From Prorocentrum cordatum (Eukaryota): a DNA stretch of 55,490 nt. This document shows, piece after piece, positions 1,328 through 41,157 of the stretch. The position numbers and the translations under genes were made by a program. The notes below the pieces were generated by a model, which saw only the letters and a list, made by a program, of their open reading frames with translations, did no database searches and was not told the origin of the DNA. Positions within the stretch are counted from its first letter, which is position 1, and each line of letters begins with the position of its first letter. The stretch spans positions 62,001 to 117,490 of the forward strand of contig CAUYUJ010000154.1 of NCBI GenBank assembly GCA_963575745.1, read 5' to 3'.

Positions 1328-1363
1328 CTGGCACGTGGCGGGCACCATCGGCTCGGAGGCCGC
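1328..1363 (-). CDS. Host gene micro-exon G (AASEPMVPATCQ), probable
   Basis: CAG|G acceptor and CAG|GC donor; 36 nt; phase 0 at both ends; all codons end in G or C. No diagnostic motif; the terminal SDH exon is probably left of the window. Confidence 0.5.
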
Positions 1364-3528
1364 CTGTGCGCTGCGCGCGCCCGCGCGAAGCCCGCATCCT
1401 CGTGGTCGTTGCCGTGGTCACGCGGTCGCCACGGCCGTGGTCGCCGCCGTTGTCCCGATCCTTCTTGGAGGTCGGTCGGCGCAAGGAGCATCTCGGCTAC
1501 AACGCAGGTGGGAAAGGTCTTCAGACTCAGAGCAAAGATTCATTCGCGCGACAGGTGGCCTCGCCATTTTTCTCCAGACAGCCCGGACAGGCCAGGGTAG
1601 GTCGTTAGCTCCCCTTTCTCAAAGCGCTGTCGACCGCCAGGTCCCGCTGAATACCGCCTCGTTCTTCCCCTTTGCCCCCCCCAACCCCCTTCTCTCCCTC
1701 CCCCTCTCGCACCCCTACACCTCGCATCCGTTCCTCCCCGTATTTCACCCCCTCCTTTCCATACCTCCGATGTCGTGATTGTTGCTGACAACGCGAAGCC
1801 CTACCTTGCCGTCGCTCGGACGCCCATTTCCCGTACATTTGTCGGTTTCGTGCATGTTTGTTGTGCTCGATGGTCCAGGATGGTCCTCGATGGTTCTCGC
1901 CGAGAAAAAATGCACATGTCCGAGCGATGCCAAGCTTCAGGCCTGGACCCCTTCCCGTGGCTCTCATTCCGAGCCGCTTGGTCGACGGCCCCGAGGCACG
2001 GTACAGGGCGCCCATGGAGGCCAAAGGTTACGAGAATAAGCCCGTCGTAACTTTGTTCTCGACGCAAACACTAACATGTGATCCGCGGGTCGAGAGCGCA
2101 CCTCTTCTGGTCGAAGCTAAGCGGGCCGCGCGAAGCTTGAAGTAGGCAAAGAAGAGGAGGGAGGCCGAGAGGAGGCATAGCCTCGGATACAGGCGGTGCC
2201 GAAGCCGCTTCTCGACGCAAACACGTCTGTGTTCCATTCTCTGGCGGGAACCAAAAAGGTACCGATACCGCTACTCCCCGGACCTCTCCTGGGGTGCGCT
2301 CTGGCCAGAATTTCGAGGCGAATGCGGCGGTGGCGACGAGGACCTCCCAAGCGGGCCAAAACGGGGAAAATGGGCGAAGGGTTCCTGGGCAACGCAAGGG
2401 GGTATGCCTCCAATGTGGGAGTATGGCTGCAATTTGAAATGATTGTTATTCCGGGTGCCTGCGGCGGAGCCTGAAGGGATGGAGGGTCGGAATTGAATGT
2501 GAACGAGGTCCCCCAAAAGATCTGCGACACAAATCAGAAGGAACCCGGGTGAAATTACGCGAGCGCCACGTCATGGGTACCGTGGGTACCCGTTGCTCCT
2601 CCGACCCTCCCCCTCCCCGCTCCTTCCCCGCCCCCCCCTCCACAATTACATAATATGACTACTCTCCTCTCTCCCCTGACGACGTGCGGCAGATGTTCGG
2701 CCCCCCTCCGCGTATTGTTTTTTTATATACAAGATTCCCGGGAGTTGGGTTTCCGCTGGGAGTTGTTTCAAATTCATTGTCCCGCTTAAGCGCTGGCCTC
2801 ATTCTCAGGCTGCCGCTCGTTACAAATCGTGTTCCCGCTGCAACGCTGGCCTCATTTCCGCGCTGCCGCCCGTTCCGAATCGTGCTCCCGTTGCAGCGCT
2901 GGCGTCATTATTCCCAGGGCCATGCCAGGGCATGCAATGCAATGCTATGTGGTGTTCCGCTGTGCGACGCCATGCCTTCAGCTGCAACGCCATGCTATGC
3001 CATGCTACGCTTTGATCTTCAACGCCATACTATTCCATATTCTGCTCTGTGCCGCTATGCGATGCCATTCTGTGCACTGGAATGATTCGTGATGCAATTC
3101 TTCACTACGCGACGCTGGGCCATGCTATGACATACTACGCTCTGCCGTGCTATTCTACTCCCTGCTATGCCGTGCTCTACGATGCATCGCGCACCCTCTG
3201 AGTACCAGTGCCCTTCTCGACATCCGACTGCGCGAACAGAGAGGAGATCTACGCCACGGCAAGGGATGGGAGGGAGGGGCAGGACGTCAGGCATGACGCG
3301 AGCGCACCTGGCTTGCCCTCCCCCCTCCCCCCTCCACTGACCCTCCCCCCCTCCCCCCCTCCTCCCTGCCCTAGCTCCTAGGGAGGAGGAGGAGGAGGAG
3401 GAGGAGGAGGAGGAGGAGGAGGAGGAGGCGGAGGAGGAGGAGGAGGAGGAGGAGGCCGAGGAGGAGGGAGGAGGGAGGAGGAGGGAAGAGGGAGGAGGAG
3501 GGGGAGGCGCTCGGCTGCCCCATAGCGC

Positions 3529-3558
3529 CTCCCGCGGCGGGAAGTAGAACAGGTAGTC
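3529..3558 (-). CDS. Host gene micro-exon F (DYLFYFPPRE)
   Basis: GAG|G acceptor and GAG|GC donor; 30 nt. Completes the EEP motif R-L-D-Y-h-F across a 14.2-kb intron. Confidence 0.7.
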
Positions 3559-3718
3559 CTCCCCCCCCCGGGCGCCCACGCCCCACCCGCCCACCGCCGA
3601 GAGTGGCTGCCTCCTGCGTGGGGCCCGCGCGCACCTCCAGGCGCCCGGCCTCGGGACCGTCACAGACAGCTCGCGAAGAAGAACCAGTCCCAGGGGAGGG
3701 CTCTGGACCTCTGGGGTT

Positions 3719-4196
3719 AAGTCGGGCGTCGTGTCCCCCTGCAGGGGGATTTTGGGCGTTTTGTTGTTGTTGTTGTTGTTTTTATGTGTATATATATATG
3801 TGTGTATATATATATATATATATAAACAAAAATACCCCCCGAATAGGAAAACATAGTCAAAACATCGTCCCCTGACTATTTTCTGCCTATTCCTGAACAT
3901 CCCCCCTGCAGAGGGACACGCCCGACTTCACTCTGGGGCCTGCGCGACGACAAGCAACGGCGCAGCCGGGTGTCTGGGAGAGGGGTGCGCGGAGGGGCCG
4001 GCAGGGCGGCGCTGGGCTTAGGTCGGGCGTGTCCCCCTACAGGGGGATGTTCGACGAAACATCAAAAATACCTAAAAAAATCCCCAAATGGCCACAAAAT
4101 GCTCAAAAAATAGTCCCCAGACTATGTTTGGACTATTTTTGGGGTATGTTCTATTTTTCGTCGAATATCCCCCTGTAGGGGGACAGGCACGACTCA
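3719..4196. mobile_element. Two neighbouring MITEs with AGTCGGGCGTGTCCCCCTGCAGGGGGAT TIRs (3719-3928 and 4019-4196); third, interrupted copy at 35832-36239
   Basis: TIRs of about 28 bp with AT-rich interiors; flanked by TTA/TCA/TGA-like triplets, suggesting Harbinger/Tourist type (inferred). Confidence 0.75.
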
Positions 4197-4590
4197 ACGC
4201 CGGTAAAACAGGGCTAGGATCGGGATAAATCGCTCCAGAGCGTTCCGGAGCGCTCTCAGAGCGTTCCGGAACGCTCTGGAGCGGCCGCGGCGCCCAATAC
4301 ATCCTCCAAACCCGCCGATTCTCAGAGATTTCGAGTTATCCCGATCCGATTTTGTCCCGATCTTCGCGTCGTTTTAGCCGGGCCGATAGCAGGAGCGCGG
4401 GGGGTGGGCCGGTGGGGCCTCGGGCCGCGCGCCGGCGGCCCCTCCCCCGAGGCAGGCCCAGCCGGCCTCCACAGGCCGGCCCCCCTCGGGCAGGCCCCAG
4501 CTGGCCTCAGCGGGCCCCCGGAGCTGTGGATGCCACGACAGTGGGCACTCTGACAATCCTATCGTTGGATTATTTGGACGCCCCAAAAAT

Positions 4591-4939
4591 GGGCACGGAA
4601 AGAATGGGTACACCCTGCGAAATGCTTAAGAAATCATGGGTTAAGAAATTCATAGTCTCAGAACTTGAATAAAAAACCCAACATTTCCATTAAAATCTTA
4701 GGATTTCCATTGAAAAATTAAGAATAATCGAGACTGTGGCCGAAAACTTAAGTTTTCTTAAGCATCGCCTAAGGGGTACAGTGCCCAACAACAAATCTTG
4801 CCCAAAACCCGCAGCGGCCGCTGTTGGGCAGGCGGCCTTCTGTCTCGAGTGGACACGGGCCGCGGCGGCACCGACAGCGAGTCCTGCTCAAAATGAACAG
4901 GAGCTGCTGTTGGGCATTGTACCCATTCTTTCCGTACCC
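4591..4939. mobile_element. MITE whose left TIR is interrupted by the GTAC MITE
   Basis: Removing the insert restores GGGCACGGAAAGAATGGGTACAGTGCCCAACA, inverted to TGTTGGGCATTGTACCCATTCTTTCCGTACCC. Confidence 0.8.
4612..4775. mobile_element. AT-rich MITE with GTAC target duplication (second, truncated copy at 1-128)
   Basis: ATGCTTAAGAAA / TTTCTTAAGCAT inverted ends; GTAC at 4608-4611 and 4776-4779, and also at 129-132. Confidence 0.8.
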
Positions 4940-4955
4940 ACTCCGGGCGCCCAGC

Positions 4956-5819
4956 AAATTCGCCGGCCCAACGGGCCAGAGGCGTGCTAAGATCTCCGGT
5001 AACTGGTTAACAATTCTCTAGTTCGCGCGCGCGGGGCGGCCCCTGGGGGTCCCCAAACGAAAAGTACCCCGGGCGATCCCCGACCGATCCCCGGGAGACT
5101 CCCCCAGAGCGCTCCAGGAGCGCTCCATGAGCGCACCAACAGGGCTCCGAGACGTCCCCGAGAGCCCCAAGGAAGGCCAAGAGGCCCCCAAGAGGCCCCC
5201 AAGATAGTACACGAGGGGTCCGACATGCCACAAGATCGCTCCAAGACGCCCAAGATAGCCCCCAGACGCCCCAAGAGGCCTCCAAGAGCACTCCCAAGAG
5301 GGCCCCCGAAGGCAAAATTCATTGTTTTTCCTTAGGTTTTTGACAGATTTTGGAGCTTCCACCTTTTCGGCTTCCCGACGCCCCAAGACGGCCCCAAAGG
5401 CCCCCAAGATCGCCCCAAGAGGGCTCAAGAGGCCCCCAAGAGGGCCCCAAGATGGCCCAAGAGGGCTCGAAGACGGCCCAAGAAGTCTCCAAGACGGTCC
5501 AAGAGGGCCCCAAGAACGCCCCCAAAGGGGCCCCAGAGAGGGAACACGAAACAACATTTCGAGCCCTCGGCCCTAAGAAGCCCCTACGAGGCCCCAAGAG
5601 GCCCCTAAGAGGCCCCAAGAGGCCCCCACGAGGCCCTCAGGAGGCCCCCAAGAGTCCCCCAAGCGGCCCCAGGAGGCCCCCCAAATGCCCCCCCGAGCGC
5701 CCCAGGAGTCCCCCAAGCGGCCCCAGGAAACCCCAAAGCGCCGCATTGACACCAGGCCCTCGGGCAAACGGCAGACATGAGACTGTATGGGCCGGCGGAA
5801 TGAGCGAAGCGATTAATAA
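4956..5819 (+). mobile_element. Helentron/Helitron2-like non-autonomous element (CCAAGA-rich body)
   Basis: 5' AATTCGCCGGCCC is inverted to 3' GGGCCGGCGGAAT, followed by an imperfect GCGAAGC hairpin. Confidence 0.55.
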
Positions 5820-6496
5820 GGATGTGCTTAGAATGTGTTGAACATGATCTAACCATGTTTCAAGCATGTCCACAAGATAGTTAAAACATACTTGACACCT
5901 CTTTTAGACATCTGCTTGTGGATGCCACGGCCATGGACACTCTCACGATCCTATCGTTGAATTGAAGATGTGTTTCAAAAATGTGTGAAACATGCTCAAA
6001 CCATGTTTCAAGCATGTCCATAACATAGTGAAAACATCTGTGACACCTCTTTTTTAGGCATCTGGAGATTATCTGGCAGCATGCTTCCTCTCCACTGGTC
6101 GTCCTCCGCAACGCGAGGGGCGGTCTCAGCGCCCCGGCGCCACCTCCGACGGAGCGGCCACATGCTTCCTCTCCACTGATCCTCCCACTCCATCATGAGT
6201 TCCCCGTTCCTCTCCACATGCTTCCTCGCCCACATGAGATTATCTGGCAGAATGCCTCCTCTCCACTGATCCTCCCCCGTCACGCCAGGGGCGGTCTCAG
6301 CGCCCCGGCGCCGCCTCCGCGGCGGAGCCGCCGGGACGCTCCGCGCCCCCCCCGGGTGGAGGCGTCGCGTCGAGGCCCCCCCCCCCTCTCGGAACGGCCC
6401 GGGGGGATCTGCCGAGGCTGGCCAGGACTGCCTGGGGAGCTGCAGTGCGCGAGGCCAGGAGCCGCACCGTCGAGGCGTTTGACCCAAGGAACGGTG

Positions 6497-6644
6497 AACC
6501 ATCCTTGGCAAACGCTCTGGCAGCAGTCCGTCTCAAACGAATCCAAGAATGTCACCCCTGACAGTCAAATACGGATGCCCCCAACTATCCCTATTAATCA
6601 TTACCTCAGCTCTAGAAACCGACAAAATAGAACCGAGGTCCTAT
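6497..6644 (-). pseudogene. 18S rDNA fragment (degenerate; region just 3' of V4)
   Basis: The reverse complement reads ATAGGACCTCGGTTCTATTTTGTCGGTTTCTAGAGCTGAGGTAATGATTAATAGGGATAGTTGGGGGCATCCGTATTTGACTGTCAGGGGTG...TTTGCCAAGGATG, recognisable eukaryotic SSU rRNA. No flanking rDNA. Confidence 0.9.
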
Positions 6645-6952
6645 CGGAAAGAGGCCCCTTTTTCCCATCGGTTTGACTTCGATTTCCCATAGGAAACCTA
6701 GAAAGAAAAAAACCCGAGGCACAGCGTAAAACAGCTGAGGAGCACGGAGCTCCTCCCCAGCGAGAAGGGCTCCCTCTTCAGTCGAGGCGCTGACCTGAGG
6801 AACAACAAACAAGGAAAGAGGCCCCTGTTTTCCCATCAGTGAAACTTCGATCTCCCATGGCAAACCTGGAAAGAAAAACCCGAGGCACAGCGCAACACAG
6901 CGAAGGAACACGGAGCCCCTCCCCAACGAAGAAAAGGGCTCCCTCTTCGGCG
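6645..6952. repeat. Diverged tandem duplication (period about 167 bp) abutting the 18S fragment
   Basis: GGAAAGAGGCCCCT...AAACCCGAGGCACAGCG...AAGGGCTCCCTCTTC occurs at about 6646 and about 6812. Confidence 0.8.
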
Positions 6953-8462
6953 CCCCGGCTGTGCAGATGGTGGGCCTGGGCGGGGCGGTCCGGTCCAGGC
7001 CGCTCCTCGGGTCTGCGTCGGGGGAGCTTGCGAAGGGGCCCACAAACACACAAATAAATCCGTACAAATAACAGGAATGCCCACATTGATCCATACTTTC
7101 TGAGCTTCTGTCTTCCCCCCACTTCCCATCTCTTCCCATATTTTCCTGGGAGTCGACGATTAATTGTGTCTGTGTGTTTCTTTCCCTCCTGAACTTACTC
7201 GAAGCGAGGCTCACCATGGCCAACAGAGCATAGAGTGTTCCTCATCTGGCGGCGCAGGGAGGGACGGGGGAGAGAGGAGGAAGGGAAGGGAGAATGGTTA
7301 CGATGAGAAGAAAGGGGAGGGGGGCCAGGGCGGAAGGGAAGGCGGGAAGGGAGGAGCGAAGTAATCCCACCAGCCCTTTCGGGCGTGAGTGGTTTACCGA
7401 GTTCCCTCTTCCAGCCCCATTCTTCCCCTCCAGGGAGGGCTTTGCCCCTCCCCCTACCCCCTATACCCTCCCCTGGACCTGGGCGGCGGGGGGAAGGGAC
7501 TGGAGCGTCCAAGAAGATATCGGCTAATTTCACGAACACGGCCATAATGCGAACGAGACGGCCACTCAGATTGAGTAGACGAGCGCACGAACAGGAAGGA
7601 ACAGTGCTTACATCGGGGGTGGTCTGTGGAGAGAAGCGTGTGGAAACAGACGCCTCGTCGGCGCATGGAGCAGGAAGACGCCAAATCAAATCGGCTCGCA
7701 ACTTCAATTCGATATGCGCTGCGTGGCACATACATTATGAAGAAGGCATTGATGCGTTCGGTGGCCAACAACCACTTGCTGATAAACCGCGGTGCTTGCG
7801 GTTAGGCAGGCGACACTCGCCAGCGATCGATCGGAAAAACCGACAGCGAAACGACACCTGATCGATTGAACCTGGCATGCTGTCCCAAGACCTTCGACGC
7901 TCTGAGAAAGCGCGGCCCGAACACACGACCCCACTCTTTACCGCAGCGGTGCCCGAGACCCGCGCAGCCATACACGGGACAACGAAACCCGTCGCGACTG
8001 CTCATTTTGGCAAGAAGTAGATGGAACCTGACGAGGACGGGACCTGGACTCCAGGACCAAGGATCTTCACCCAAACCCAATTCCAAGGCAACTTTCTGAC
8101 AGCCCCGGGGCCGGTGGAGGACCTGGTTGCCCGAGAACGGCCAAAATCCTCGGGAGCTGTTTCCCTCAAGAAACGTTCCTCCATGGCGATGTACAGGACG
8201 CCAATTTATATGAAGGCAGGTGGGGCGCCGTGGCATCCAGCTGCAACTGTGAAACTCCCGCCCCCGCTGTTCGACGAGGTCCCGAATCCAGCCCCCCGGG
8301 ACAATCTCGATTCCAGCAACTCCGAAAGCTTTGGAGAACCACCGCGGACCTCGGACAACCACCAAGGACCGCCCAGACGTCGTCGTCCCCGTTTGGCACC
8401 GCTTCCATCATCGGCGAACCAGTTTCACCTACCAGGAAAACTGGAAACCACAGACAAATACG

Positions 8463-8507
8463 TCTGTGTGTGTGTGTGTGTCTGTGTGTGCTTGTGCGTA
8501 TGTGCGT

Positions 8508-8550
<43 letters not shown>

Positions 8551-8555
8551 TGTGT

Positions 8556-8603
<48 letters not shown>

Positions 8604-8695
8604 GCGTGTGTGCGTGTGTGCGTGTGTGCGTGTGTGCGTGCGTGTGTGTGTGTGTGCGTGTGTGCGTGTGTGTGCGTGTGTGCGCGTGTGTGCGC

Positions 8696-8747
<52 letters not shown>

Positions 8748-9190
8748 GTGTGTGTGTGTGCGTGTGCGTGTGCGTGTGTGCGTGTGTGCGTGTGCGTGTG
8801 TGCGTGTGTGCGTGTGTGCGTGTGTGCGTGTGTGCGTGTGTGCGTGTGTGCGTGTGTGCGTGTGTGTGTGCGTGTGCGTGTGTGCGTGTGTGCGTGTGTG
8901 CGTGTGTGCGTGTGTGCGTGTGTGCGTGTGTGCGTGTGTGCGTGTGCGTGCGTGTGTGCGCGTGCGCGTGTGCGCGTGTGCGTGCGCGTGCGCGTGCGCG
9001 TGCACGTGTGCGCGTGCGTGTCCGTGTGCGTGTGCGTTCGCGTGTGCGTGTGCGTGCGCGTGTGCGTGTGCGTGTGCGTGTGCGTGAGTGTTGCGCGTGT
9101 GCGCGTGCGCGTGCGTGTGCGTGTGCGTGTGCGCGTGCGTGCGTGCGTGCGTGCGTGCGCGTGTGTGCGTGCGTGTGCGTGTGCGCGCGT
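8463..9190. repeat. (TG)n / (TGCG)n compound microsatellite
   Basis: Seen directly. Confidence 0.97.
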
Positions 9191-9327
9191 CGCACGCCAC
9201 GGGGCACGATGCGCGAAGATGGGCGGAGGAAGAGGAGGGGGAGGAGGAGGGGGGGGAGGGGGGGAGGAGGAGGAGGAGGAGGAGAATGAGAATGATAATG
9301 CGCTACCACGGAGTGATCCAACTGAAA

Positions 9328-12300
9328 CTACCTCGCTGCCCTTGCTGCCTGCTGGGCGCGAGCCAGGGCCTTCGGCCATTCGCCACGCTTGATTCGTCGA
9401 AGATATTCCCTCCGAGCATCGGTGAGCTGACGAGGCTCACAAAGACCCTGAAGACCAGCACCCAGGACTATTATGCTCACTACTATAACAACCGCAACTA
9501 CTGCAGAACCATATACCGAGGGTGCAATGAAAAGCCATGTGATGTGTTTCGTGCACCCAGCCCCCACCTATATGCAAGTGCTGACCGACAGGGAGGTGGA
9601 AAACATGAGCATCCCCAGGAGTGAGCAGAAAGCACGGGGACCGACGCCGCCTCATCAAGGCCGCGTCAATGGCAGATCCCCGACAACGACGGCACCTCTT
9701 CCCGCTCTCATCCAGGGCGTGGTCCGTCTCGAACGCAGTGACAACATTCACCGATGGCGGAGGGGGAGGAGGAGGAGGAAGAGAAGGCCCCGCCTGTGTC
9801 GAACTCCTCGAGGTGGGGGGCTTCGCGGCAGCTGCAGCGTTGAGGGCCTCAAGGCCCGCGCGGAGGAGGCGGCGCCTGAGGGGCAGGGTGTCTTTTTCCA
9901 CCGTCCAGACCTTCGCCCGCAATGCTTCGGGGAGTCGAGCGGACTTCGCGGCCTCTCCAGCCAGTGCGTCCGCCGCCGTGTTGCCAACCGTGAGAAACAG
10001 AGGCACTTTCTTTTCTAATTCCTTTTCTGCCGTCAAATGGGATGCATCCTGGAGAACCGCAATCTGTGACGTGTCACGGTCCTGGTCTCTGGGCTGCTTT
10101 CGGATCATGCCCCAGATCCCCATGTTGTCCCCCGATGGTTCTAGATAGCCCAGCAGACCATCCGTCGGCGACGGCAGAGTTATCTATAACATAGATCAGG
10201 GACCCCGCACTGTACGTAATAGCCAGAAGGGGCCCGTAAAGTTCCCCACGAGGTACTGTTTCCCTACGCCCAGGAAGAGGCCCGAGGATAGCAGAGCGGG
10301 CACTTGGGGGACTGTAAGAGCTCATATTGGCGACTCCGATGCCGATGCGACGAAAGCGAGGTTCACGTGCATCTGGCCCGCCACTGGCATCACCGAATAC
10401 CACAAGCGGTCTATCTTCACGCCCACGGCCCAAAAAGGAACCGTGCAACTGATCATCATTAGTACCATTGAAGAAAAGCAAAGAGGGCACGTCCGAAGGT
10501 GGGGGGATCGCCGTCCAAGCCTTCGGGATCAAGCCTCTGTGCCAGTAGCAAGCCTCGCTCTCGTGCAACGTCTGAGCGCGCGGGGCCAAGTAGTCGGAAT
10601 CGACAAAGGCCTTCGCACTCGTATTGCATGCGCATGTCCAAAAGCGGTGAAACGCTGTCTCAGCACCTTCGTGGCACCGATGGCATTGAACATCAATATT
10701 GGTTCTGGTCTCGTCGGCGACTCGCTGCCGTGGCCAAAACCCCCCCGTAGCTATGTTGACCATGACCTCCGCGAGCCGATGGCCGTTCTTACACAAGCGG
10801 ATACCCTGGATGAACTTACGGTAGCTATATTTGTCGACACCGTCGGCCATCCCCTCCCCGCAATAGTGAATAGACGCGCGAGACCAGCACCTAACTTGAA
10901 ATGCGCATTCAAAGTCGTCAAGAATGTCTGAGTAGCCCTCGAAGCCCGAGAGGTCAAGCTCCGAAAACTCCCGCGTGAAATCAGGAGTGTCCCAAAGGTT
11001 CGGCGCCTGCGGGTCCCATCCAGCCTCCAGAAGGTGTCCAATAATGGCCGCTATGGGCCCCCTGATCTGCCGAGAAACCTGCGACGGCGATATGCTACGA
11101 AGTTGTTCGACGATGCGGGGCCACGCCAAGTTGACCATCGGCCGAATCGCTGGAGTACTGAACCAGACAGACAGCCATAAACGAAGTGCTTCTCTAGGAA
11201 ACTTAACTCCTGGATCTTGCCCTGGAACTTTAAGATCGAGAAGAGTGGTGAGGCATCTCCCTTTGGCCTTAGAACCCAAAGAGGCCCCAGGACGACGACA
11301 AAACTGCTGACGGTAACATCCAAACGCTCCGTGCACTTGGTGGCCGTACGATCCTGCAGCCTGGGCGCCAGCTCTCTCAAGCCGGCCGGTCACAAAGTAT
11401 TGTTTGGACGCACGAGCGAAACGTCGAATCTTGGCATTCATACCGCTGGCTTTCGCTTGCCGTTTATATCGAACCTGCCTAGCTGGCCGACCGTTCCCAA
11501 GGTCCACGCCGAGATACGGGGCCTGCCGAACAGCAGACACACAGATGCCTACCTTCTGCAGCTGCCGTGAGACAAAACGCCCGTCCGCGGGTCTGGAGCA
11601 CATCGGCACACTTCTAGGCGGCGCCTTGAGACCAACCTCGCCGAGCTTGTTGCATGTATCCCGAAGAACGCGAAACAGTTGAGCTCTGACAACACGACGT
11701 GACCCAAGGATCGCCAATCCAGATCCGCATCGACATGCCCACGTGGGCCGTCGAAATTTGCTGGATAATGAAATATACCATGCAACGTGCAAAGCGGGTG
11801 CCTCCTCGTAATCCTTGCACGATACTTCGCGACGGTTGAAGAGCCTGAAAGAAACTACCACATTGGCCAAGGGTCCTTGGGCAGATACAATTTTGAAGTT
11901 CAAGGGCCAGAACCGTCGGGGGGAAGTTCAGCTTCCAAGCAAAACGCACCAAAACAGCCCACCAAATGGAATCGTAAAACCCCTCCACGTCAAGGAGCCC
12001 ATGGCCGTTGTCCGTGCCGAGCTTGAAATAGGCTTCGTCATGAAGCGCACGGAGGAATGCTTCACGAAGCGAAGAGTTGCTTCGGACGGCCGCGTCCCAC
12101 GCAGGCTCTGCCGAGGAAGACCAGGAGCGGGCATCTTCTTCACGGGCCAGTGACCACACTCTTGTGAGCATGGTCAAAAGCCCGATCACCCTGTCCCCTC
12201 CCGACTTCTTCGGCAGTAGCCGACCTGGGACCATCAGCATTTGCCGAGGCCACGTCAGCTGGGCCTCGCAGGCCACAAGAAGAGAAGTAAGCTGCTCGAT

Positions 12301-27984: not shown

Positions 27985-28024
27985 CCGAGACGTCGTAGAG
28001 GAGGTCGCGCACGTCGCCCAGGCC
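27985..28024 (-). CDS. Host gene micro-exon C (GLGDVRDLLYDVSG)
   Basis: GAG|G acceptor and G|GC donor; 40 nt; all codons end in G or C. Joins exon D to give DLLYDVSGSHPVT. Confidence 0.7.
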
Positions 28025-29311: not shown

Positions 29312-29405
29312 GAGAGAGCGTGATCCACCGCCGCTTTACTGTGGAAAATTGCCCCCCTCTTGCTCTGGAACCCAGGGTTTTCCCCTCCCCCACCCTCCGG
29401 AAAAT

Positions 29406-29442
<37 letters not shown>

Positions 29443-29488
29443 ACCCCCCCCCCACCCCCCCCCCCCCACCCCCCCCCGGTCCCCCACC

Positions 29489-29545
<57 letters not shown>

Positions 29546-30999: not shown

Positions 31000-31032
<33 letters not shown>

Positions 31033-31676
31033 GGCCCTGCCGTCCCCAGGGGACACTAACAAGGGCAGCGCCCGAAGGACCAGTCGTTATTCTTGGATCG
31101 CCGCGGGGGATGCTAAGGGGATAAGGGGATACAAGTGGATGCGAAGGTAGGTTCGATCCAGCCTAACCCAGCTTCGAAGTGGGCTGCACGTGCCCTAATT
31201 GGCTTAAAAGGCGCACAGCTATGTGCTCAGTCGTGGGCGGAGCCCACCCAGCAGAGCTAGCCCTCGCCATCCTAAGCCACACATGGCACTTGTAACCTCC
31301 CAGGCAAACCCCCCGAGGCGCGGCGTCGACACCCCTGTCCTCCCAGGGGGGCTTAAGAATAACACCGGGACCTCGACATCTGAATTAAAGGGAAATTAGG
31401 ACACACAAATAAATACACACAAATAAAAATAGTCCCCATATTTTCCCATATTTCCTGGGTTTTTGTCTTCCCCCCCAATTCCCATATTTTCCCATATTTT
31501 CTGGGAATCGCGGATTAATTGTGTCTGTGTGTGTTTTTCCCCTCCTGAATGTTTTAACACTCTGGAAGGTCAGGGACGAGGCTCCGCTCGGCCTCCGGCC
31601 CCATCGCCGACGATGCTCGTGCGATGCTACACCGCGGGCAACTTGGCCCGAAAAGCCTGTGCGGGGCGCCTCACGT

Positions 31677-31905
31677 TGGGCGCCCGAGTTATCCGGGGTA
31701 ACTCGGGTCAGGGGTAACTCGGGTTTAGATTCCCGAAAAAGGAACCCGAGTTATCCCTGACCCGAGCTACCCCTGATGATTCGGGGCTCTGGACGCCCGA
31801 GTTATCCGGGGTAACTCGGGTCCGGGATAGCTCGGGTTTGGATTCCCGGAAAACGAACCCGAGTTATCCCTGACCCGAGTTACCCCTGATGATTCGGGGC
31901 TCTGG
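31677..31905. repeat. Tandem dimer of an about 114-bp palindromic GGGTAACTCGGG / CCCGAGTTACCC unit (also 39522-39750)
   Basis: Both loci are dimers with the same structure. Confidence 0.85.
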
Positions 31906-34072
31906 TCACGTAGCCTCTTTTTTTTGTTCGCCAGAGACTCGAACCAGAGCAAAGGCCGTAATTTCAACGTGGGTGCTAAATCTAATACGAAACAAGAACC
32001 GCGACATCGTCGGACCGGGACAAGTCGGGGATCTCTGTGGAGCCGCGGTTCTGGAGGATGCATCGGGCGTCGCCCCCGTTCCAGAACGCGCTAAGAGCGT
32101 CCCAGAACGCTCTGGAGCAACTCATCCCAGTCCTGGTCCCGCCCGCGATCCTGAACTCAATCATCACAAAGTGGCGGGCTCCATTTGGCCCTGGGTGGCA
32201 CCGAATCCAAGATGACCGACGCAAAGGCCTGCAATACTTCCCGCTCGGGCATGATGGTCCCCGTGAGCGCTGGCCCCGCGGCCTCCGCTCCCCGCCGTGG
32301 CTCTTCGCTGCCCCCCCCAGACCCCCGACGTCGCGCTTGTTCCCCAACGTCGACCCGCAAAAGTCTGGGCCCCTTCCCCGGTGCGGGTCTCTTTGTGCGG
32401 CGACGGGGGAGCGAAGAAAGCCTCCGAACGTTCAAGGCAAGCTGCGATGGACCAGACCACGCCGGGCGTCCCCGCCGCCCCGACCGACACAGAAGCCTCG
32501 GCCGACATGTCGGAAACGCCTCAAAAAAACAGCAGCGCTCGTCGCTGCAGCGGCCCGGTACGGGCGTTTCCTCCCGAGTCGTTTCGCTGACTGTCCGGGG
32601 GCCCGACCCAGGCCCCTGGAGGCCGAAAGTAGCGAAGCACCTCCCGTTGTGCTTTCTGCCACAGCGCGAGGCTGGCCATCGCTCGGACGCCCATTTCCTG
32701 TGTTTTTGTTTTTTTGTTTCGTGCGTGGTTTTTTCGCCGAATGGTCGAGGATGCTCCTCGAAGGTCCTCGCCGAGAAAAAAAAAGGCAAACATCCGAGCG
32801 ATGCCAGGGAAGCGATCTGGCACCCCAAGGCCTCAGCTCATTGCCCCTCCCTCGCTCGGCAGCGCACCAGCGTTGACCCGGGGGGGGGGGGGGGGGGGAA
32901 ACGGTCCTGGTGGGGTAGCGGGTCTTGGACCCTCCCTGTGATCCTAACCGGATAAAGGGGCGATAATACCCCCCCTGGGATGATAAAGCTCGCGGTTCCC
33001 CCGAGGATAATTAAGGGTTTTCCCGGGGAATTTGTTTTGAGCTCCACACTCTGTCCGAATTCCCGGGGAAGGAGGAGAAGAAGGAGGAGGAGCAGGAGGA
33101 GGAGGAGGAGGAGCAAGAGGAGGAGAAGCAGGAGGAGGAGGAGGAGGAGGATTGGCCATTTTGGTAGGGATCAGCACTCGGCGAGTGCTGATCCATACCC
33201 AAACGTCGTTCTGACGTTTACTCCATAGTTGTAACTAGTGCATCCCATGACCCTGCCGCACGGTCGTAACGTGGGCAAACTGAACTGGTGAGAATCCCAC
33301 AGCCCTGCCACACGCTCGAGACCATCATGGCCATGCTCGGCGTTTTTGATGCGGTTGCTAATCAACATGATGTGATAGCATATTCGATCCCCGCAACTTT
33401 CCACGTGATTATCAAGTTCGACCCCCGCGCCTCCCCCACAGATAAATCCCTGTGGGCGGGGATTAAAAAATAGAGGGGGGAAAGGGGGGGGCACCTTTAT
33501 TATCACCCCTTCGGGGTTACCTGGCCCAGGCGTTTCGGCCTGATTCTGCGGCAACTCATGGGAGCCTCTGATGCTATCTTCTGGGGGGACGAAAGGGTAG
33601 GATAGCAAAGGGTGGGGTAGAGGATCAGCTCACGTAGCTGGTTTTCCTGGCGCCTCCGGGCGCCGGGAGGTGCCCGTGTATCGAGGAATGGGCCCGGCGG
33701 CGAGGCCGAAACCGCCTGCATGCAGCAGATTTCGTCACCCCCCTTTCCTTATCCTAATCATTCGTCCCCCGACATCTTGGTAGCTCTGGCGAATCGACGC
33801 TAAACGACACTAATCGACGATCATCGGCGGTGGATCGACGCTAATCGACGCCAATCGAAGCTCATCGGCGATCGATCGACGCTTCTCGACGCTACATCGG
33901 AGTTGCCAGTCGACCAGCAGACGCTGATCGACGCCAGGGCACTCTCGAAGTGAAACCCCAAGGGTAATTATGCGAGGCTCCCATGCTTTGCTGGCGGAAC
34001 TGGAGTTGCTACTTGACGGCCCGGGAGTGCCTGGGAAGGATCACTGGAGCCCGAAGATGGCGCGAAACCCTC

Positions 34073-34246
34073 GCTAGAGGCCTCCTAGATGGGTCCGAGT
34101 AGATCTTGTCGGAGGATCGCGCCACGTCGAGCCGCCAATGCATCGGCGACGTCGACGTGAGGCCAAATCGATCTCCACGTCGAGCCGCATCGGCGATGCA
34201 TCGGCGATGCGGCGCGATCCCCCGACCCCATCTACTCCGACCCCAT
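34073..34246. mobile_element. Palindromic MITE family GGGTCCGAGTAGAT...GCATCGGCGATGC (also 672-862; partial copies at about 23910 and 30545)
   Basis: Long inverted arms and multiple copies. Confidence 0.7.
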
Positions 34247-35619
34247 CAGAGAAAGCCCACTGTAGCATCCGCTTCTACCCCCCCCATCCCGACGGCAACC
34301 ATAGCGGCGATCCAAGTGGGACACCCCCTCACCAGCTCGTGGGCCCTCTCGGCTCTGGCAAGCTGAAGCAATATCGGTGACGAGCCGCGGGGAGCCACCA
34401 GTCAGCTCGATGCCCCCCCCACCCCTCCCCAAACTGCGTCGTCCACGGATTATTTTGATCTGGTGCTGGACAAGCACGTGCGGGAGGAGGGAACGCGAGG
34501 GAGTGCGGAGAGGAGAGGAGGCGCGGGGCCAATGTGCTGGCACGGCACGGGATTGCTCACAGACTGGGTCTGGGAAGGAAGGACATGCAAGGGATGAGGG
34601 GTGAGGGTTGATGGGGTGGGAGATGAGGCTGAGGGGCCGAGGGGTGGGAGGTGCAGGAGATGAGGCGGACGGGGATGAAGAGGGATGACACCATAAGGAG
34701 GCGTTGCAGGAGCAGGGGCGGGGGGACAGATGGAAAGGGGGAGGGGGCCGGGGTGGAGAGAGGGGGAGGAGGGGAACCCGACCCCTCACTGCTCCCTCCC
34801 TCCCTCTCTGGTACCGTCCCCCACTCACCCCAGAACTCTCATACACTCCCTCTCACCTCATATCCGAAGAACCCTCATAAAACCTCCTCTCCTAACCCGC
34901 CTGTCGTCTCTCCTCTCGCCTCCTCCCCCAAGAACCCTCAGAGAACCCGCGGGAGCCCCCAGCACAACTTGCAGGGCCCCGCCCCCCCCACCGCGGGGCC
35001 CGCTCCTCCCCCCACATCCTCGGCCTGCTCCATCCTTTGCTGCCACCTCCCCCTTGAGAGCCCCCCGTCCACTTAGGGTTGTGGATGCCACGAGAATGGA
35101 CACCATGTCGGAAAATGTTCCAAACATGTCTCAAACATGTTTTTGGCATGTAGAGAACATGTTTCAACATGCTTTAGGCATCTGGAATGTATTTGGCAAC
35201 ATGTTTCCCTCCATTGACCGCCCTCCACAAACTTCGGGGCTCTGACCTGCCACCCTTGAACAACCTGCTCGGTCCGTAGAGAGGAGGAGGAGGAGGAGGA
35301 GGAGGAGGAGGAGGAGGAGGAGGAGGAGCAGGAGGAGGAGGAGGAGGGGGAGGAGGGGGGGAGAAGGAGGAGGAGGAGGAGGAGGAGGAGGAGGAGGTAG
35401 GAGGAGGAGGAGGAGGAGGGAGGAGGAGGGGGGAGGGGAGGAGAAGGAGGAGGAGGGGGAGGGGGAGGAGGAGGAGGAGGAGGAGTCGCCTGGAGGCAAG
35501 GCCGCCCCTCGGCGACCCGTGGGCGCCCCCAAAAAAGCGCTGGCCGGGTCCGCCGAGGTCGGTGCCCGCCCGTGGAACGCCCCGTGGGCGCAGACTGCAC
35601 CACGCAGCTTGCACCACAC

Positions 35620-35814
35620 TCGGGTCGGGCGAAAGGGGGGGATAGCAAAGGGGGGTTTGAGAATCAGCTCACGTAGCTGATTTTCCCGGCGCCTCCCGGC
35701 GCCGGGAGGCGCCCATGTATCGAGGAATGGGCCCCTCGGTGAGGCCGAAATCAGCTGCATGCAGCAAATTTCGTAACCCCCCCTTTCCCAATCCCCCCCT
35801 TTCGCCCGGCCCGA
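35620..35814. mobile_element. MITE family TCGGG..GGCGAAAGGGG (also 33581-33772 and 40535-40731)
   Basis: Three alignable copies share GATCAGCTCACGTAGCTG; inverted termini. Confidence 0.8.
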
Positions 35815-38575
35815 ACCACACAGCCTGCATTAAGTCGGGCGTGCCCCCCTGCAGGGGGATCTTCGACGAGAAATCCGCCGATGCGGCGTGTGAGTTTCTG
35901 AGAGCGTGGACTTGAGCTCGCTCAAGCTTCGCTCTGCAGGAAGGGGGGGGGGGGCACGTGATTTCCGATGCCATTTCCGATGTGTTTCGGTACACGGGGA
36001 TATTTCCGACGTCAGTTCCGACGTTTTTCGGTACCCGGGGACAGGGGGGTATAGAAAACTCCACTTCCAGAGCCCCCCCGAATCGGCGGCACTGGTCGGA
36101 GGCCAGCCCAATAAGAAATACCCCAAATATTCAAAAGATACCCAAACATCTTCAAACATACAATAAAAAATAATCCCCCGGGATTTTTGTTTAAGTAGTA
36201 TTTTTGAATTTTCCCCCTGTACAGGGACAGGCCCGACTTGAAGCTTGCAGCACATAGCCTGCGCCGCGGACACCCCGTTTTTGCCGAAGACGATTAGGAG
36301 GCAACTACTGGGAGGTTTTCGTCGGAAAGGTTAAGGAGGATTGAGCCCCAGTTGGGAGCTGTTACGCCGGAAGGGGGCCTCGGATTAAGCGGGATTGAGC
36401 CGGATGAAGCGGGATTCAGCGGGATTGAGCGGGATTGAGCGGGATTAAGCCGGATTTCGGACCAGGGCAAAACCTGAATTTGACCTCCCAGGAGTTGCAT
36501 CCGAAAGAGGAGATCAACTCCACGCCCACCCCCCCACCGAGGCCCGTGCGAACGTTTCCCCCTTCCGCACCATATGGGTTCACAGTGTTGTGAACAACCA
36601 CGCGTTGGAACTGTCAGACCGCAGCATGCCAGCCGCCCCGGAATCGACGCCCCCATCAGTCAAATCGTACTGTGCGGTGCACATGCGTTGATCCAGAGAG
36701 TGCTTTCTCTAAGAGCCCCTTGCAGCAACCAAAAGCTTATGCGCGGCACATGTGGGCGCCTCTGCACGCGCATGTCATACTCATGCAAGACATCATACCT
36801 GCCAACCATATCAAGCAATAGCTGGTCAGCAACTACGAAAAAAACACCAGAAGCTGTTCCAACAAAGGGTCGCCAGATTTCGCAGCGGGCGCACTCGCAG
36901 GAGTCATTCGGACACCATGCGTGCACAGCAGTTCTGGCAAACAAGATCATGCGAGTCGCACCTGCACGCATTCAAAATACGTCAGCAAGCTCGCGCGCCC
37001 AACAGCTCTGTCCTTCAAGCCACGCGCGCACATCTCCGTGCGCACACGTCGAACTCCTTCCAGAATCAATGGTTCTCTCGGCGTCAAAATGGAGGTGAGC
37101 AAGTAGATCAGGCATAAACTTTTGCTGATGCAAGATGTCTCTATGATTCCTAAGCTCTGCGAGCGCGCAATTCTTCACCATCGCTATATGTACAAATCGC
37201 CATCAGCAACACCAGCATCACCATTGCGATCTTCATCGTTATCTTAGACAACATCACCATTGCTATCGTCAACATCACTATTGCCAGAATCATCATCACA
37301 CCGACGTCATGATCGCTATCGTCGATGTCGTCAACCTCGTAGAATGCATGCGCGCGTACTTCCTCCTCCTCCGTATCATCACCGACATCATCATAATTGT
37401 CGTCATCATCATCGTTGTCAGCGTTATCGTCATCATCATCAGCATCGTTATCATCATGCCACTCAATATCGTCATAATCAAACTGATCGTTTTCAGCATC
37501 AGCATCACCATCATCATCATCACCATCAGCATCCTCGTGCCATGCTCCTGATTCCCCTCCTCCTCCTCAGCATCATCATCATAATTCCCGGCACCATCAA
37601 CTTCATCACCATCACCAGCGCCGTCGACGTCGCCCCCCAACGCCGTCATGAACAGTACAAGCGTCATCGTCATCGTCGTTCTCGCCGCCCAGTTGAGTTG
37701 TGCCAAAAGCTGACACGAGCACTTGAGGTGGTCACGCGTGGATGCGGTCAATATTGATTGCAACACATACATTGCCCCACACATATTTGACTAACTACAT
37801 AGCCTGCACCATATGGACTGCACACTATAGCTTGCAATGCATAGAACGCAACACGTAGACTGCACCACATAGCCCGCATCTGTTTGTTGCGCCACATATC
37901 TGACAGCACCCAAATTGCAAACATGCTTGCGGCACATATGTATAATGCATCGCATATGCAAAGCATCTTGAATGGAATAACGCACTGGCTGGGGTCCACG
38001 CTGGCAAACATGCCTTCACACGCAACAGTGGCCCCTTAAAACCCGCCACGAAAGCCCCAAAAACCATCATCTTGCATACACTCTTCCCCATCCTGGCGGA
38101 ATATGCCGAGGACCTCTAGGTACTGCCTGCTCCATCGTTGTCGTCCTCCCTCTTGTCCCCCTCTTTTCCTATCTCCCTCCTCCGCCTCCTCCTCCTCCTC
38201 CTCACTCTCGACCACTTGTTCCTCCTCCTCTTCCCACTCCTCCCCCGCCCCCTGCCCATCCCTCCTCGCCCTCCGCCAGTAATTCGTCGCGAAGTTGGGA
38301 GTTCGCACTGTCTCCTCATCCTCCTCCTCCTCCTCCTCCTCCTCCTCCTCCTCCTCCTCCTCCTCCTGTCCATCCCTCCTCGTCCGCCCTCATCGGGCCT
38401 CGCCCTGGTTCTTCTCCTGGCCCTCCTCCCCCAGAGTTGTCGACCTGTCCTGGAGCGCGCCCCGACCAATACCTCGCGGCGAGTCGGGCGAAGAGCGTCA
38501 CACCACCTCCTTTTCATCCTGCTCCTCCTCCCCTTCCTCACACCAATCTGCCATGAGGGAAGCGGGTCTTCAAAG

Positions 38576-38769
38576 TCGGGGGCGGCCAAGAGGGGCGTGT
38601 CCAAGAGGGGGGGGTGCAAATTATGGCCGGCGGCATGTGCGCGGCCCAGGGGGGGGGCCGGGGACGTAATGAAATAAGAGGAGGCGCCATGACATCTGTG
38701 GAAATATCATGGCCCCCGCCATGATATCCCCCTTCCCTAGTCATCACCCCCCTCTTTGCCGCCCCCGAC
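38576..38769. mobile_element. MITE family TCGGGGGCGGCCAAGAGGGG (also 944-1130; partial copies at about 24191 and 26628)
   Basis: The copies align along their length and have inverted termini. Confidence 0.75.
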
Positions 38770-39333
38770 AAAGCAAGGGGTGTGGGCCCCAGCTGGCCCA
38801 GGGGGGCCCACCCCGAGACCAGACCTCCATACCGAGTCGTCATCTGACGGCCCTCGGGCCTGGGGAGTGCCCCTCCGGCCCGGAGCTCCCGGGACAGCAG
38901 CAGACATTCAGGACCCCGATCCCCCCGCACTGCTTTCTAGCATACTGACCTTGAACCGGCGGCGAGCGAGCAGGGACAGCGAGAACAGGAAGGCCCTCTC
39001 AGAAGGTTCGGGAGTCCCCCAGCCTTCTGAAAAAGTTGTCGGAGCCTTCCCCGAAGACACAAACAGCTTCTCAGAAGGCGCCTGGGGGGCTTCTGAGAAG
39101 GCCCGCCGCCTTCTGAGAAGGCGTTCTCCTTCTCACTTTCGCCCCTGGCTCGCCGCGGATTGAAACAGCACACCCAGGACCTCTCGTTGCGTGTGTTGGC
39201 CAGGATTTCGCGACGGAATCCTGTGTGGCGATGGGGGGCCTCCCCGAGAGGCCTGAGCACAGCAACGTCGGCAAGAGAAGCTCGAAGCAAGGATTTAGAT
39301 CCAGCAAGCGACTACCTCCTCGCCCCCCCGCTC

Positions 39334-39380
39334 CTGTCGGAAAATCTCGAGGAACTCCAAGTACTCGGCGCTGTGCGCAC
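39334..39380 (-). CDS. Host gene micro-exon B (AHSAEYLEFLEIFRQ)
   Basis: CAG|GT acceptor and CAG|GA donor; 47 nt. Continues the frame from exon A; matches the S-x-E-Y helix that follows the GDxN motif in sphingomyelinase-like EEP proteins. Confidence 0.65.
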
Positions 39381-41079
39381 CTGCCGCGAGCACAGGAGCC
39401 CACGCCCCCATGACGCAGACAAGCGAAGGTTCGGCCGAGGGTAAAAGAAAACGTTGTGTCCCCCAGGGACCGGGTTTCATAATGGAAAGGGGGCCACGGC
39501 ACGGGTCGGTAAGTTTACACTTGGGCGCCCGAGTTATCGGGGGTAACTCGGGTCCGGGGTAACTCGGGTTTGGATTCCCGAACAAGGAACCCGAGTTAGC
39601 CCTGACCCGAGATACCCCTGATGATGTGGGGCTCTGGACGCCCGAATTATCCGGGGTAACTCGGGTCCGGAGTAACTCGGGTTTGGATTCCCGAAAAAGG
39701 AACCCAAGTTAGCCCTGACCCGAGTTACCCCTGATGATTCGGGGCTCTGGTACACTACGTTGGGGTCCTCGGCCACAGCCTACTCTTTTCACAGGCATAA
39801 ATGGCAAGCATAGCTGGTGGTATTCAGTACCCAATGGTGGACCGATATAACGAATTGTGCCACTCACCAGAGCGAGCATGACTGCCAACCTTTCCCCGTC
39901 TTCCCCCCCTTTTCTTGTTTCTCCGCCACCTGTTCCCCTATCCTTAGTGGCCACGATTGGGGGGGGACTGGCATAGGGAGGGGAACGTCGACCTGAAATC
40001 GGCGATACATCGCCGAGAGATCCGCGATAGAGCCCCGACAGCAAACCCGCACGTTTTTGGGCGGGGTGGGTCTATCAGACCCTCATCGGCGATCAATGGG
40101 CCATGAGGGGTCGACGCAGTCGAAAGTGATATGATTGTACTAAACCTTAGGCGTGTAATAGTGCTCCATGACTTATCCAGCAGGTATGGGCAGGTAGATG
40201 AGAGATAAAACATGGGATGATGGAATACAATGTCGAAGGATCTGGAAGTTTCCTCTTCCGTTGTGCAGATGCAACAGTGCTTCGAGCATGTGGCAGCCAA
40301 ATCAACATAGGCGCGCGCCGCTTGAGTCCAAGCGGCGGCGGACGCAAGCGCGTCACTCGCAGGCGCACCTTCACCTCCGCTTAAAGTGATGTATCTCCCT
40401 GCCTATGCCTACAGTCGGCCCGCATCGTAAGGATGCGCGATAAGGATGTGAGGGCCTTGGACGTCCATTCCGAAGCTTTTCGAGCGGGGCGCGGCCAACG
40501 AAAGTTGTCAAGGATGGACCGAGGAGGCAAGGATTCGGGCCGGCCGAAAGGGGGGGGATAGCAAAGGGGGGGTTTGAGGATCAGCTCACGTAGCTGATTT
40601 TCCCGGCGCCTCCCGGCGCCAGAGGCGGCTATGTATCGAGGACTGGGCCCCTCAGTGGGGCCGAAACCAACTGCATGCAACAGATTTCGTAACCCCCCCT
40701 TTCCCAATTCCCCACCGTTCGTCCGGCCCGAAGGATGCAAGGATTCCCTTGGCAAGGGTGCCATTCCTTACTATGCGGGTTGATCCTCCGCATTCGCTCT
40801 CCCTCCGCCTGCTCCTCTCGAGATCTCCAATGCTCGGCACCAGCCCCCACGCCTGCGGCCGCTGCCCGGCAGCGCCCTCCCACCACGTACTGGCTGCCGA
40901 CGAGACGGAGGCAAATTGCGCCAGCTCGCCTCCCCCCAAATCTCCCGGCCAGCCCCCCCCACCACCACCAGCCCTCCTCTTCCTCCTCATTCTCCTCCTC
41001 CTCCTCTTCCTCTTCCTCCTCCAACCACCAGCCCTCCTCCTCCAGCGAGCCCGCCTCCTTCCCCCCCCCGCCCTCGCGC

Positions 41080-41157
41080 CGCTCATCGCGCTCTGCCGCC
41101 CGTTGAAGTTCAGCGTGCCGCACACCACCAGCGGCCACCGGCGGCCCCCGCCGCCCC
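41080..41157 (-). CDS. Host gene micro-exon A (GGGGRRWPLVVCGTLNFNGRQSAMSG), EEP/sphingomyelinase-like protein
   Basis: CAG|G acceptor and G|GC donor; 78 nt; high GC3. PLVVCGTLN resembles the EEP motif P-h-h-h-x-G-D-x-N. Phase-compatible with exon B. Confidence 0.65.

What the first reader, a model, noticed from the sequence alone, without database searches (positions are those of the whole stretch)
1328..41157. Hidden host gene: 350 coding nt in seven micro-exons across about 40 kb
Seen: exons 41157-41080, 39380-39334, 28024-27985, 23139-23090, 17826-17758, 3558-3529 and 1363-1328 join in phase without stops. The product is ...RRWPLVVCGTLNFNGRQSAMSGAHSAEYLEFLEIFRQGLGDVRDLLYDVSGSHPVTYADTRLTVNGEVPVERVLTNSSVYEKDSLKRQRLDYLFYFPPREAASEPMVPATCQ. 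Known/inferred: the motif order (GxxN, SxEY, DLL..HPVT, ExVLT, RLDYhF) matches the C-terminal half of sphingomyelinase-like EEP proteins. Nearly everything else left of 41 kb would then be intronic.
Basis: partly seen in the sequence, partly recalled or inferred. Interest (0 to 1): 0.7.

Follow-up and report, generated by a model that had tools for sequence, protein, structure and literature searches.

The report
Dinoflagellate sphingomyelinase-like gene lacking catalytic aspartate
Seven tiny exons scattered over 40 kb are a real, spliced dinoflagellate gene of ordinary layout for these algae; its protein looks like a neutral sphingomyelinase but, like its dinoflagellate relatives, has swapped an essential catalytic aspartate for threonine, so it may bind lipid rather than cut it.

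Summary
The gene is real. All seven minus-strand exons (30-78 nt) lie at the stated coordinates, join into 116 open codons with GC3 0.957, and use GC/GA/GT donors and AG|G acceptors. The product is 50-67% identical to Polarella, Symbiodiniaceae, Polykrikos and Noctiluca proteins, nearly gap-free across junctions 1-5. RNA-type contigs from 4 of 4 runs laid join exons 1 and 2 across the predicted 1,699-nt intron. Junction 6 lies in a variable loop and is less certain. Short exons in multi-kb introns are the described norm in these genomes, so the layout is ordinary. The protein is a PF03372 neutral-sphingomyelinase-like domain. Its motif-iv Asp (GDxN) is Thr, as in 17 of 18 core-dinoflagellate rows (one Ser); 8 of 8 nearest outgroup rows, including Oxyrrhis and Perkinsus, keep Asp. 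The other active-site residues stay essentially fixed. The matching mutation D178A abolishes human nSMase1 activity. Best reading: a soluble, non-cutting or much weakened phospholipid-headgroup binder with a helical-bundle N-terminus (about 55%). No activity was tested.

The parts
41080..41157 (-). Exon A (78 nt): carries motif iv as GTLN; Thr codon ACG at 41116-41114 in place of the catalytic Asp
   Evidence: RNA-type contigs match 41079-41159 with 0 other letters in 4 of 4 runs laid
39381..41079 (-). Intron, 1,699 nt, GC-AG
   Evidence: Skipped exactly (1,699 nt, 2 letters of slip) in contigs of 4 of 4 runs, 2 studies
39334..39380 (-). Exon B (47 nt), SxEY helix
   Evidence: 47-letter side of the RNA-type joint; homology
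28025..39333 (-). Intron, 11,309 nt, GA-AG
   Evidence: junction gap-free against most orthologs; not tested with reads
27985..28024 (-). Exon C (40 nt), DLL motif
   Evidence: Profile score 94.6; GC3 13/13
23140..27984 (-). Intron, 4,845 nt, GC-AG, with long simple repeats
23090..23139 (-). Exon D (50 nt), HPVTYAD motif
   Evidence: Profile score 117.7
17827..23089 (-). Intron, 5,263 nt, GT-AG
17758..17826 (-). Exon E (69 nt), ExVLT motif
   Evidence: Used with its flanks as the database query that found the orthologs; profile score 149.8
3559..17757 (-). Intron, 14,199 nt, GA-AG; holds a decayed LINE on the same strand
3529..3558 (-). Exon F (30 nt), conserved DY motif (Asp253 of B. cereus SMase)
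   Evidence: 3' end less certain
1364..3528 (-). Intron, 2,165 nt, GC-AG; lies in a loop of variable length, so an extra small exon is not excluded
1328..1363 (-). Exon G (36 nt), VPATC motif; the exon(s) with the final SDH motif must lie left of the window
   Evidence: Profile score 61.9; no downstream exon found in 1-1327

Best explanation
Shown (about 97% sure): the window lies inside one long spliceosomal gene of a core dinoflagellate. Seven 30-78 nt exons, 0.9% of a 39.8 kb span, are spliced through GC/GA/GT-AG|G introns and encode residues matching about 550-675 of an 800-1,000 aa ortholog. That ortholog has an N-terminal helical-bundle region, an EEP domain of the neutral-sphingomyelinase branch and an acidic disordered tail, and no transmembrane helix. 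Shown: after the split from Oxyrrhis, Perkinsus and an unnamed sister lineage, this ortholog replaced the motif-iv Asp with Thr, gained the tail, and kept the other metal, phosphate and DK-switch residues. Inferred: without that Asp the site cannot hold Mg2+ and position the attacking water properly. The domain would still bind a phosphodiester lipid headgroup (sphingomyelin, phosphoinositol-ceramide or lyso-phospholipid type) but cut it slowly or not at all, acting as a lipid sensor or scaffold coupled to partners through the helical bundles. The confidence given is for this inferred role.
For: Splicing: joint 39379-41079 skipping 1,699 nt in 4 of 4 runs laid, 2 studies, exon A with 0 differences; two contigs run 1,623 and 1,530 nt upstream, about the length of the orthologs' N-terminal half. 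Homology: 50-67% identity to 16 of 16 close hits that span the region. Junctions 1-5 are gap-free against 21 of 22 proteins aligned, where these cover them; P0016 has 1-residue indels near two. Site: Thr/Ser in 18 of 18 core rows against Asp in 8 of 8 nearest outgroup rows and 165 of the other 185 rows (12 gaps; 4 of the 5 other Thr rows are near-duplicates of core members). The 17 core rows in the tree form one clade, SH-aLRT 100, quick tree. The column aligns with B. cereus Asp195 and, by the match ends, with hSMPD2 D178 (inferred from ranges). [quoted passage not shown] RNA editing does not restore it: transcriptome-derived orthologs also have Thr and the contigs match exon A exactly. No 19-residue window above KD 1.8 in 11 of 11 core proteins; tails 68-292 aa in the core clade against 0-4 aa in 3 outgroup proteins.
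Against: All other active-site residues are fixed in the core clade (Asn, Glu, DK Lys, both His, Asn of motif iv, both late Asp in every row with a residue; DK Asp 16 of 17), and the domain is 53-97% identical between members. The known EEP pseudoenzyme EEPD1 shows variation across all six motifs, so this tight conservation fits retained chemistry just as well. Thr keeps a hydroxyl, whereas the published mutants are Ala or Asn. In the hSMPD2 model His272, not D178, is the base. No substrate, binding or partner was tested. The N-terminal bundles match vinculin/talin-type folds only at Z 12-13.5, within the range for common helical bundles. The structure was predicted for ortholog P0018, not for the window's own protein. 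The runs' RNA status is the tool's guess, and only one junction was covered.
Confidence: 0.55

Rival explanations
1. The gene model is right, and the protein is still an enzyme with changed chemistry: Thr and the kept Asn/His/Lys residues support a slow or different phosphodiesterase, phosphatase or transfer reaction on a substrate other than sphingomyelin.
For: Near-total conservation of the remaining catalytic residues and the DK switch over the whole core clade. Thr is itself fixed (17 of 18, the other Ser), which suggests selection for a hydroxyl rather than free decay. PMC12988330 concedes that an EEP lacking DXN could use a non-water nucleophile (passage).
Against: Motif-iv Asp mutants are dead or nearly so in hSMPD2 and APE1. 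Ligand binding alone could explain conservation of the pocket.
Confidence: 0.3
2. It is an ordinary neutral sphingomyelinase or inositol-phosphosphingolipid phospholipase C, as the UniRef names of its orthologs say, and the Asp-to-Thr change is tolerated.
For: UniRef names 'sphingomyelin phosphodiesterase' for Polarella, Symbiodinium, Durusdinium, Noctiluca and Prorocentrum entries; best structural match hSMPD2, Z 29.8, rmsd 2.5 over 264 residues; DK switch kept.
Against: These names come from annotation, not assay (my knowledge). The essential Asp is missing and there is no membrane anchor.
Confidence: 0.12
3. The exon chain is a chance assembly or the remains of a dead gene.
For: 17% of random chains with these splice signals are open. 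No database protein matched exon E exactly (79 candidates, weak). Junctions 2-6 were not seen in reads.
Against: GC3, collinear homology and the exact RNA-type joint.
Confidence: 0.02

Closest known systems
Neutral sphingomyelinases: human SMPD2/nSMase1 (8J2F), SMPD3/nSMase2 (5UVG), bacterial SMase C (2DDR, 1ZWX, 7CNE)
   Same: EEP fold (PF03372); nearest by sequence profile and by fold; orthologs keep the Asn, Glu, His, DK switch, motif-iv Asn, DY and SDH residues.
   Different: Motif-iv Asp is Thr; no transmembrane helices; a 330-390 aa helical N-terminus without a Pfam family and an acidic tail; about 20% structural identity only.
EEPD1 (metazoan EEP pseudo-nuclease, PMC12988330)
   Same: An EEP protein whose DXN motif iv is broken in a whole clade, read as binding without cleaving.
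   Different: EEPD1 lost the Asn (DXG), varies in all motifs and clamps DNA; here the Asp is lost, the rest is fixed, and the branch is the lipid-acting one. Independent origin (inferred).
Short-exon, long-intron genes of core dinoflagellates (Prorocentrum cordatum, PMC10666404; Amphidinium carterae, PMC12584245)
   Same: Donors here GC 3, GA 2, GT 1 of 6 against 51/24/25% in P. cordatum; AG|G acceptors; mean intron 6.6 kb against 4.7 kb; window GC 59.0% against 59.7%; a 36-kb gene of many short exons is shown as a common structure in A. carterae.
   Different: Exons here (mean 50 nt) are shorter than the annotated P. cordatum mean of 240 nt. The only P. cordatum entry found (CAK0893429.1) stops where this chain starts.
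Fungal kinase-EEP fusion proteins (Borealophlyctis KAJ3299862.1, Catenaria)
   Same: Same EEP subfamily fused to a regulatory domain; P0019 also has Thr and P0105 Gly at motif iv.
   Different: Kinase rather than helical N-terminus; they sit apart in the tree, so the loss is parallel; most members keep Asp.

Membership tests
EEP superfamily (PF03372) | Pfam Exo_endo_phos above the curated cut-off | tested here: met
   Full-length relatives: 9 of 9 and 7 of 8 above 24.5 bits. Single exons A and E alone: no hit. The joined product was not scanned against Pfam.
EEP superfamily (PF03372) | DNase I-like four-layer fold | tested here: met
   AF2 model of ortholog P0018 (pLDDT 82.3): Foldseek E 2.6e-13 to 1e-10; VIA Z 29.8 to hSMPD2
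Active EEP hydrolases | Motif iv Asp-x-Asn | tested here: not met
   Thr-Leu-Asn in the window; Thr/Ser in 18 of 18 core rows
Active EEP hydrolases | Motifs i (Asn), ii (Glu), iii (His), v (Asp), vi (Asp-His) | tested here: met
   Motif v is in the window (exon F). The others lie outside the window and were read from orthologs, fixed in all core rows with a residue.
Neutral sphingomyelinase branch | DK switch (Asp-x4-Lys) | tested here: met
   Asp 16 of 17, Lys 17 of 17 core rows with residues; outside the window; P0032 carries it
Neutral sphingomyelinase branch | Membrane anchor as in SMPD2 (C-terminal transmembrane helices) | tested here: not met
   Max 19-residue hydropathy 1.0-1.8 in 11 of 11 core proteins; control P0022 2.5. 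A simple hydropathy test.
Neutral sphingomyelinase branch | Mg2+-dependent hydrolysis of sphingomyelin | not testable with these tools
   Needs an assay
EEP pseudoenzyme (EEPD1-like behaviour) | Ligand binding without hydrolysis | not testable with these tools
   Inferred from motif iv only
Core-dinoflagellate spliceosomal gene | GC/GA/GT donors, AG|G acceptors, G before the donor | tested here: met
   6 of 6 introns
Core-dinoflagellate spliceosomal gene | Introns removed in transcripts | tested here: met
   Intron 1 only, 4 of 4 runs laid, RNA status guessed by the tool; introns 2-6 lay outside the stretch laid
Introner-derived introns | Terminal inverted repeats of 8-20 nt near the intron ends | tested here: not met
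   Longest inverted match 4-6 nt in 6 of 6 introns, same as random; criterion from PMC10666404

The most novel reading that the evidence does not exclude
The ancestor of core dinoflagellates turned a soluble sphingomyelinase-like enzyme into a dedicated lipid-sensing adaptor. A single catalytic Asp-to-Thr change froze the pocket as a headgroup receptor, an acidic tail was added, and vinculin/talin-like bundles couple it to the cytoskeleton or to membrane traffic. The pair of an Asp-bearing Oxyrrhis ortholog and Thr-bearing core orthologs would make the enzyme-to-pseudoenzyme switch directly testable, with a parallel case in fungal kinase fusions.
Probability: 0.25. Interest if true: 0.6.

Novelty: new variant of a known kind. 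Interest (0 to 1): 0.33.

Why it matters
The gene layout is already described for these algae, so the scattered exons mainly show how gene callers miss such genes: the one Prorocentrum entry found for this family ends just where this chain begins. The protein matters more. Databases label this ortholog group 'sphingomyelin phosphodiesterase', yet every core-dinoflagellate member seen here lacks an Asp that is essential in the tested enzymes, while earlier-branching relatives keep it. If it is a pseudoenzyme, those annotations and any pathway models built on them (for coral symbionts and bloom formers) are wrong, and it would be a lipid-branch parallel to EEPD1. If it is active, it would be an exception to the DXN rule of EEP catalysis. 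I found no paper on it in the listings of five searches, which cover only open-access and preprint text.

Tried and rejected
No genome is held for this window, so exons outside it could not be sought. Single exons gave no Pfam hit. Scans for further exons with single orthologs, a profile, and splice signal plus GC3 found nothing convincing in 41158-55490 or 1-1327; a short exon of the variable linker could be missed. No convincing extra exon in the last intron. The Prorocentrum model P0032 is not encoded in the window (only two chance 6-mers); whether it is the upstream half of this very gene was not shown. No run was on record as RNA (no RNA holder listed; five guessed). Four of the five were laid, on 38400-43400 only; most of their word share probably comes from dispersed repeats, and uncovered intron bins are not used as evidence. 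Two contigs end 376 and 377 nt past junction 1, about 105 nt beyond exon G if the model is exact; this does not test junctions 2-6. Introner signature: absent; junction slip of 2-6 nt (mean 4.2) against a null mean of 2.9, not tested for significance. Rfam: no match. Fifteen further long ORFs: no Pfam hit. ESM Atlas: no usable hit for the N-terminal region, which shows nothing. The careful tree did not finish; the quick tree was used, on 65 of 211 rows chosen by me (all close hits over 200 aa plus the top outgroups), and it includes the Asp/Thr column. No one-clade test was run. The B. cereus Asp mutagenesis paper PMC1135697 is not held. Earlier findings of the scan: nothing. No complex prediction was run. 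Supplements of the papers read were not opened; Table S5 of PMC12988330 may list exceptions to DXN.
Full report
Setting. The window is eukaryotic: no prokaryote genome is held, GC is 59.0%, and simple repeats and transposon remnants fill it. GC content and splice usage fit a core dinoflagellate of the Prorocentrum cordatum type (genome 59.7% GC; donors GC 51.4%, GA 23.8%, GT 24.7%; AGG acceptors 79.7%; mean intron 4,709 bp; PMC10666404, passages and Table 2). The species was not established.

Observation. Third positions are 95.7% G+C, second positions 45.7%. All six introns end AG, all exons begin and end with G, and the donors are GC, GA, GC, GT, GA, GC. Open joining alone proves little: 3,441 of 20,000 random chains with the same lengths and signals were open. 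None of them reached GC3 0.95, and the best of the first 3,000 scored 68 bits against an ortholog where the real chain scores 158.

Homology. A 40-residue window stretch around exon E found four proteins at E 0.018-2.3, among them a Polarella glacialis EEP protein. The joined product aligns with these and with the close hits of a second search at 50-67% identity. Named members are Polarella, Symbiodinium, Durusdinium, Cladocopium, Polykrikos and Noctiluca. Against 22 proteins, junctions 1-5 are free of gaps wherever covered, except for 1-residue indels near two of them in P0016. Junction 6 falls in a loop of 9-38 residues; the window's 9 matches P0050 and P0062, which align without a gap, but an extra small exon cannot be excluded. 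No other exon was found in the window, so the N-terminal half lies beyond 55490 and the final SDH exon left of position 1 (inferred). The only Prorocentrum entry found, CAK0893429.1, covers the N-terminal half and loses similarity just before exon A; it is not encoded in the window.

Transcript evidence. Five runs, guessed to be RNA, held 5-6% of the words of 39300-41300. Four were laid on 38400-43400. All four, from two studies, hold a contig that joins 39379 to 41079, skipping 1,699 nt with two letters of slip; that is the predicted GC-AG intron. The short side is 47 letters (exon B), and exon A matches with no difference. Two contigs extend 1,623 and 1,530 nt upstream, about the length of the orthologs' first 540 codons. 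Junctions 2-6 were not covered.

Architecture is ordinary. A. carterae genes with many short exons, long introns and 36-kb spans are described as common and hard to annotate (PMC12584245, passages). These introns show no Introner-type inverted ends. Intron 5 holds a decayed LINE.

The protein. Orthologs carry PF03372. The nearest solved relatives are bacterial SMase C, nSMase2 and nSMase1 by sequence and by fold: a model of ortholog P0018 (pLDDT 82.3) gives Z 29.8, rmsd 2.5 over 264 residues to human SMPD2. The N-terminal 330-390 residues are conserved (40-85% pairwise identity), all helical, and resemble vinculin/talin-type bundles only at Z 12-13.5, a common level for such bundles. No transmembrane helix is apparent.

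The notable feature. Exon A encodes motif iv as G-T-L-N (codon ACG, 41116-41114). The Thr column aligns with B. cereus Asp195, and by the ends of the match with hSMPD2 D178. Of 211 aligned rows, the 18 core-dinoflagellate rows have Thr (17) or Ser (1). The 8 nearest outgroup rows all have Asp; they include Oxyrrhis marina, Perkinsus chesapeaki and a sister lineage not named by the tools. The Oxyrrhis and sister proteins share the N-terminal region (E 1e-12 to 1e-24). Of the other 185 rows, 165 have Asp, 12 a gap, 5 Thr (four near-duplicates of core members and one chytrid kinase fusion) and one each Val, Gly, Lys. The core rows form one clade (SH-aLRT 100, quick tree of 65 rows). They also carry a 68-292 aa, mostly acidic tail that three outgroup proteins lack. 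D178A abolishes hSMPD2 activity (PMC10682184, section 11 and passages). [quoted passage not shown]

Against that reading, every other pocket residue is fixed in the core clade, Thr itself is fixed, the hSMPD2 model makes His272 the base, and EEPD1, unlike this protein, has decayed in all motifs. I put a non-cutting or much weakened lipid-headgroup binder at 0.55, an enzyme with changed chemistry at 0.30, an ordinary sphingomyelinase at 0.12 and a false gene at 0.02. The ligand and the scaffold role are inference.

Literature. Also seen: PMC9710629 passages on bacterial SMase metal sites and PMC13161914 passages on fungal nSMase clades; neither treats this family in the passages shown. Search listings for dinoflagellate sphingomyelinases and EEP pseudoenzymes showed no paper on this protein. 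No supplements were read. The motif numbering follows PMC12988330. The statement that UniRef names are unassayed annotation is my own knowledge.

Verdict. Its layout is known; its protein is a clade-wide catalytic-site variant of a known family. Interest 0.33.

Noticed in passing
window 15716-10077, minus strand: Decayed LINE inside intron 5, same strand as the host gene: ORF1-like frame 15716-14574, APE-type EEP endonuclease 14570-12897 (PF03372, E 8.9e-6), reverse transcriptase split over frames 13195-11617 (RVT_1, E 2e-4, below cut-off), C-terminal frame 11927-10077. An EEP element sits inside an EEP gene; unrelated to it.
   Followed up: partly
window 53675-51135, minus strand: Two long ORFs (411 and 435 aa) without Pfam hit; the second scores 0.95-0.97 to unnamed Atlas clusters and 0.90 to a Plavaka (PF18759) cluster, so probably a DNA-transposon remnant.
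   Followed up: partly
window 49817-48798 and 55489-54875, minus strand: Charged, low-complexity ORFs (340 and 205 aa) with coding-like third positions and no Pfam hit; perhaps parts of mobile elements or nested genes.
   Followed up: no
window 39522-39750 and 31677-31905; 42470-42593: Dispersed repeats (a 113-nt unit in two copies at two places; a 120-nt element) covered by many divergent contigs in all four runs.
   Followed up: no
window 25037-26585: About 1.5 kb of degenerate ATC triplets in intron 3 giving spurious poly-Asp/His/Met ORFs.
   Followed up: no
proteins P0019, P0105, P0098, P0030: Fungal-type relatives, three of them kinase-EEP fusions (P0019, P0105, P0030), show separate active-site losses: motif-iv Asp to Thr, Gly or Val, or loss of the first Asn and His.
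   Followed up: partly
proteins P0032 (CAK0893429.1), P0004, P0033: Genome-derived models of this family look broken: P0032 stops half-way through the domain, P0004 is fused to a PPR protein, P0033 holds only the C-terminal part.
   Followed up: partly
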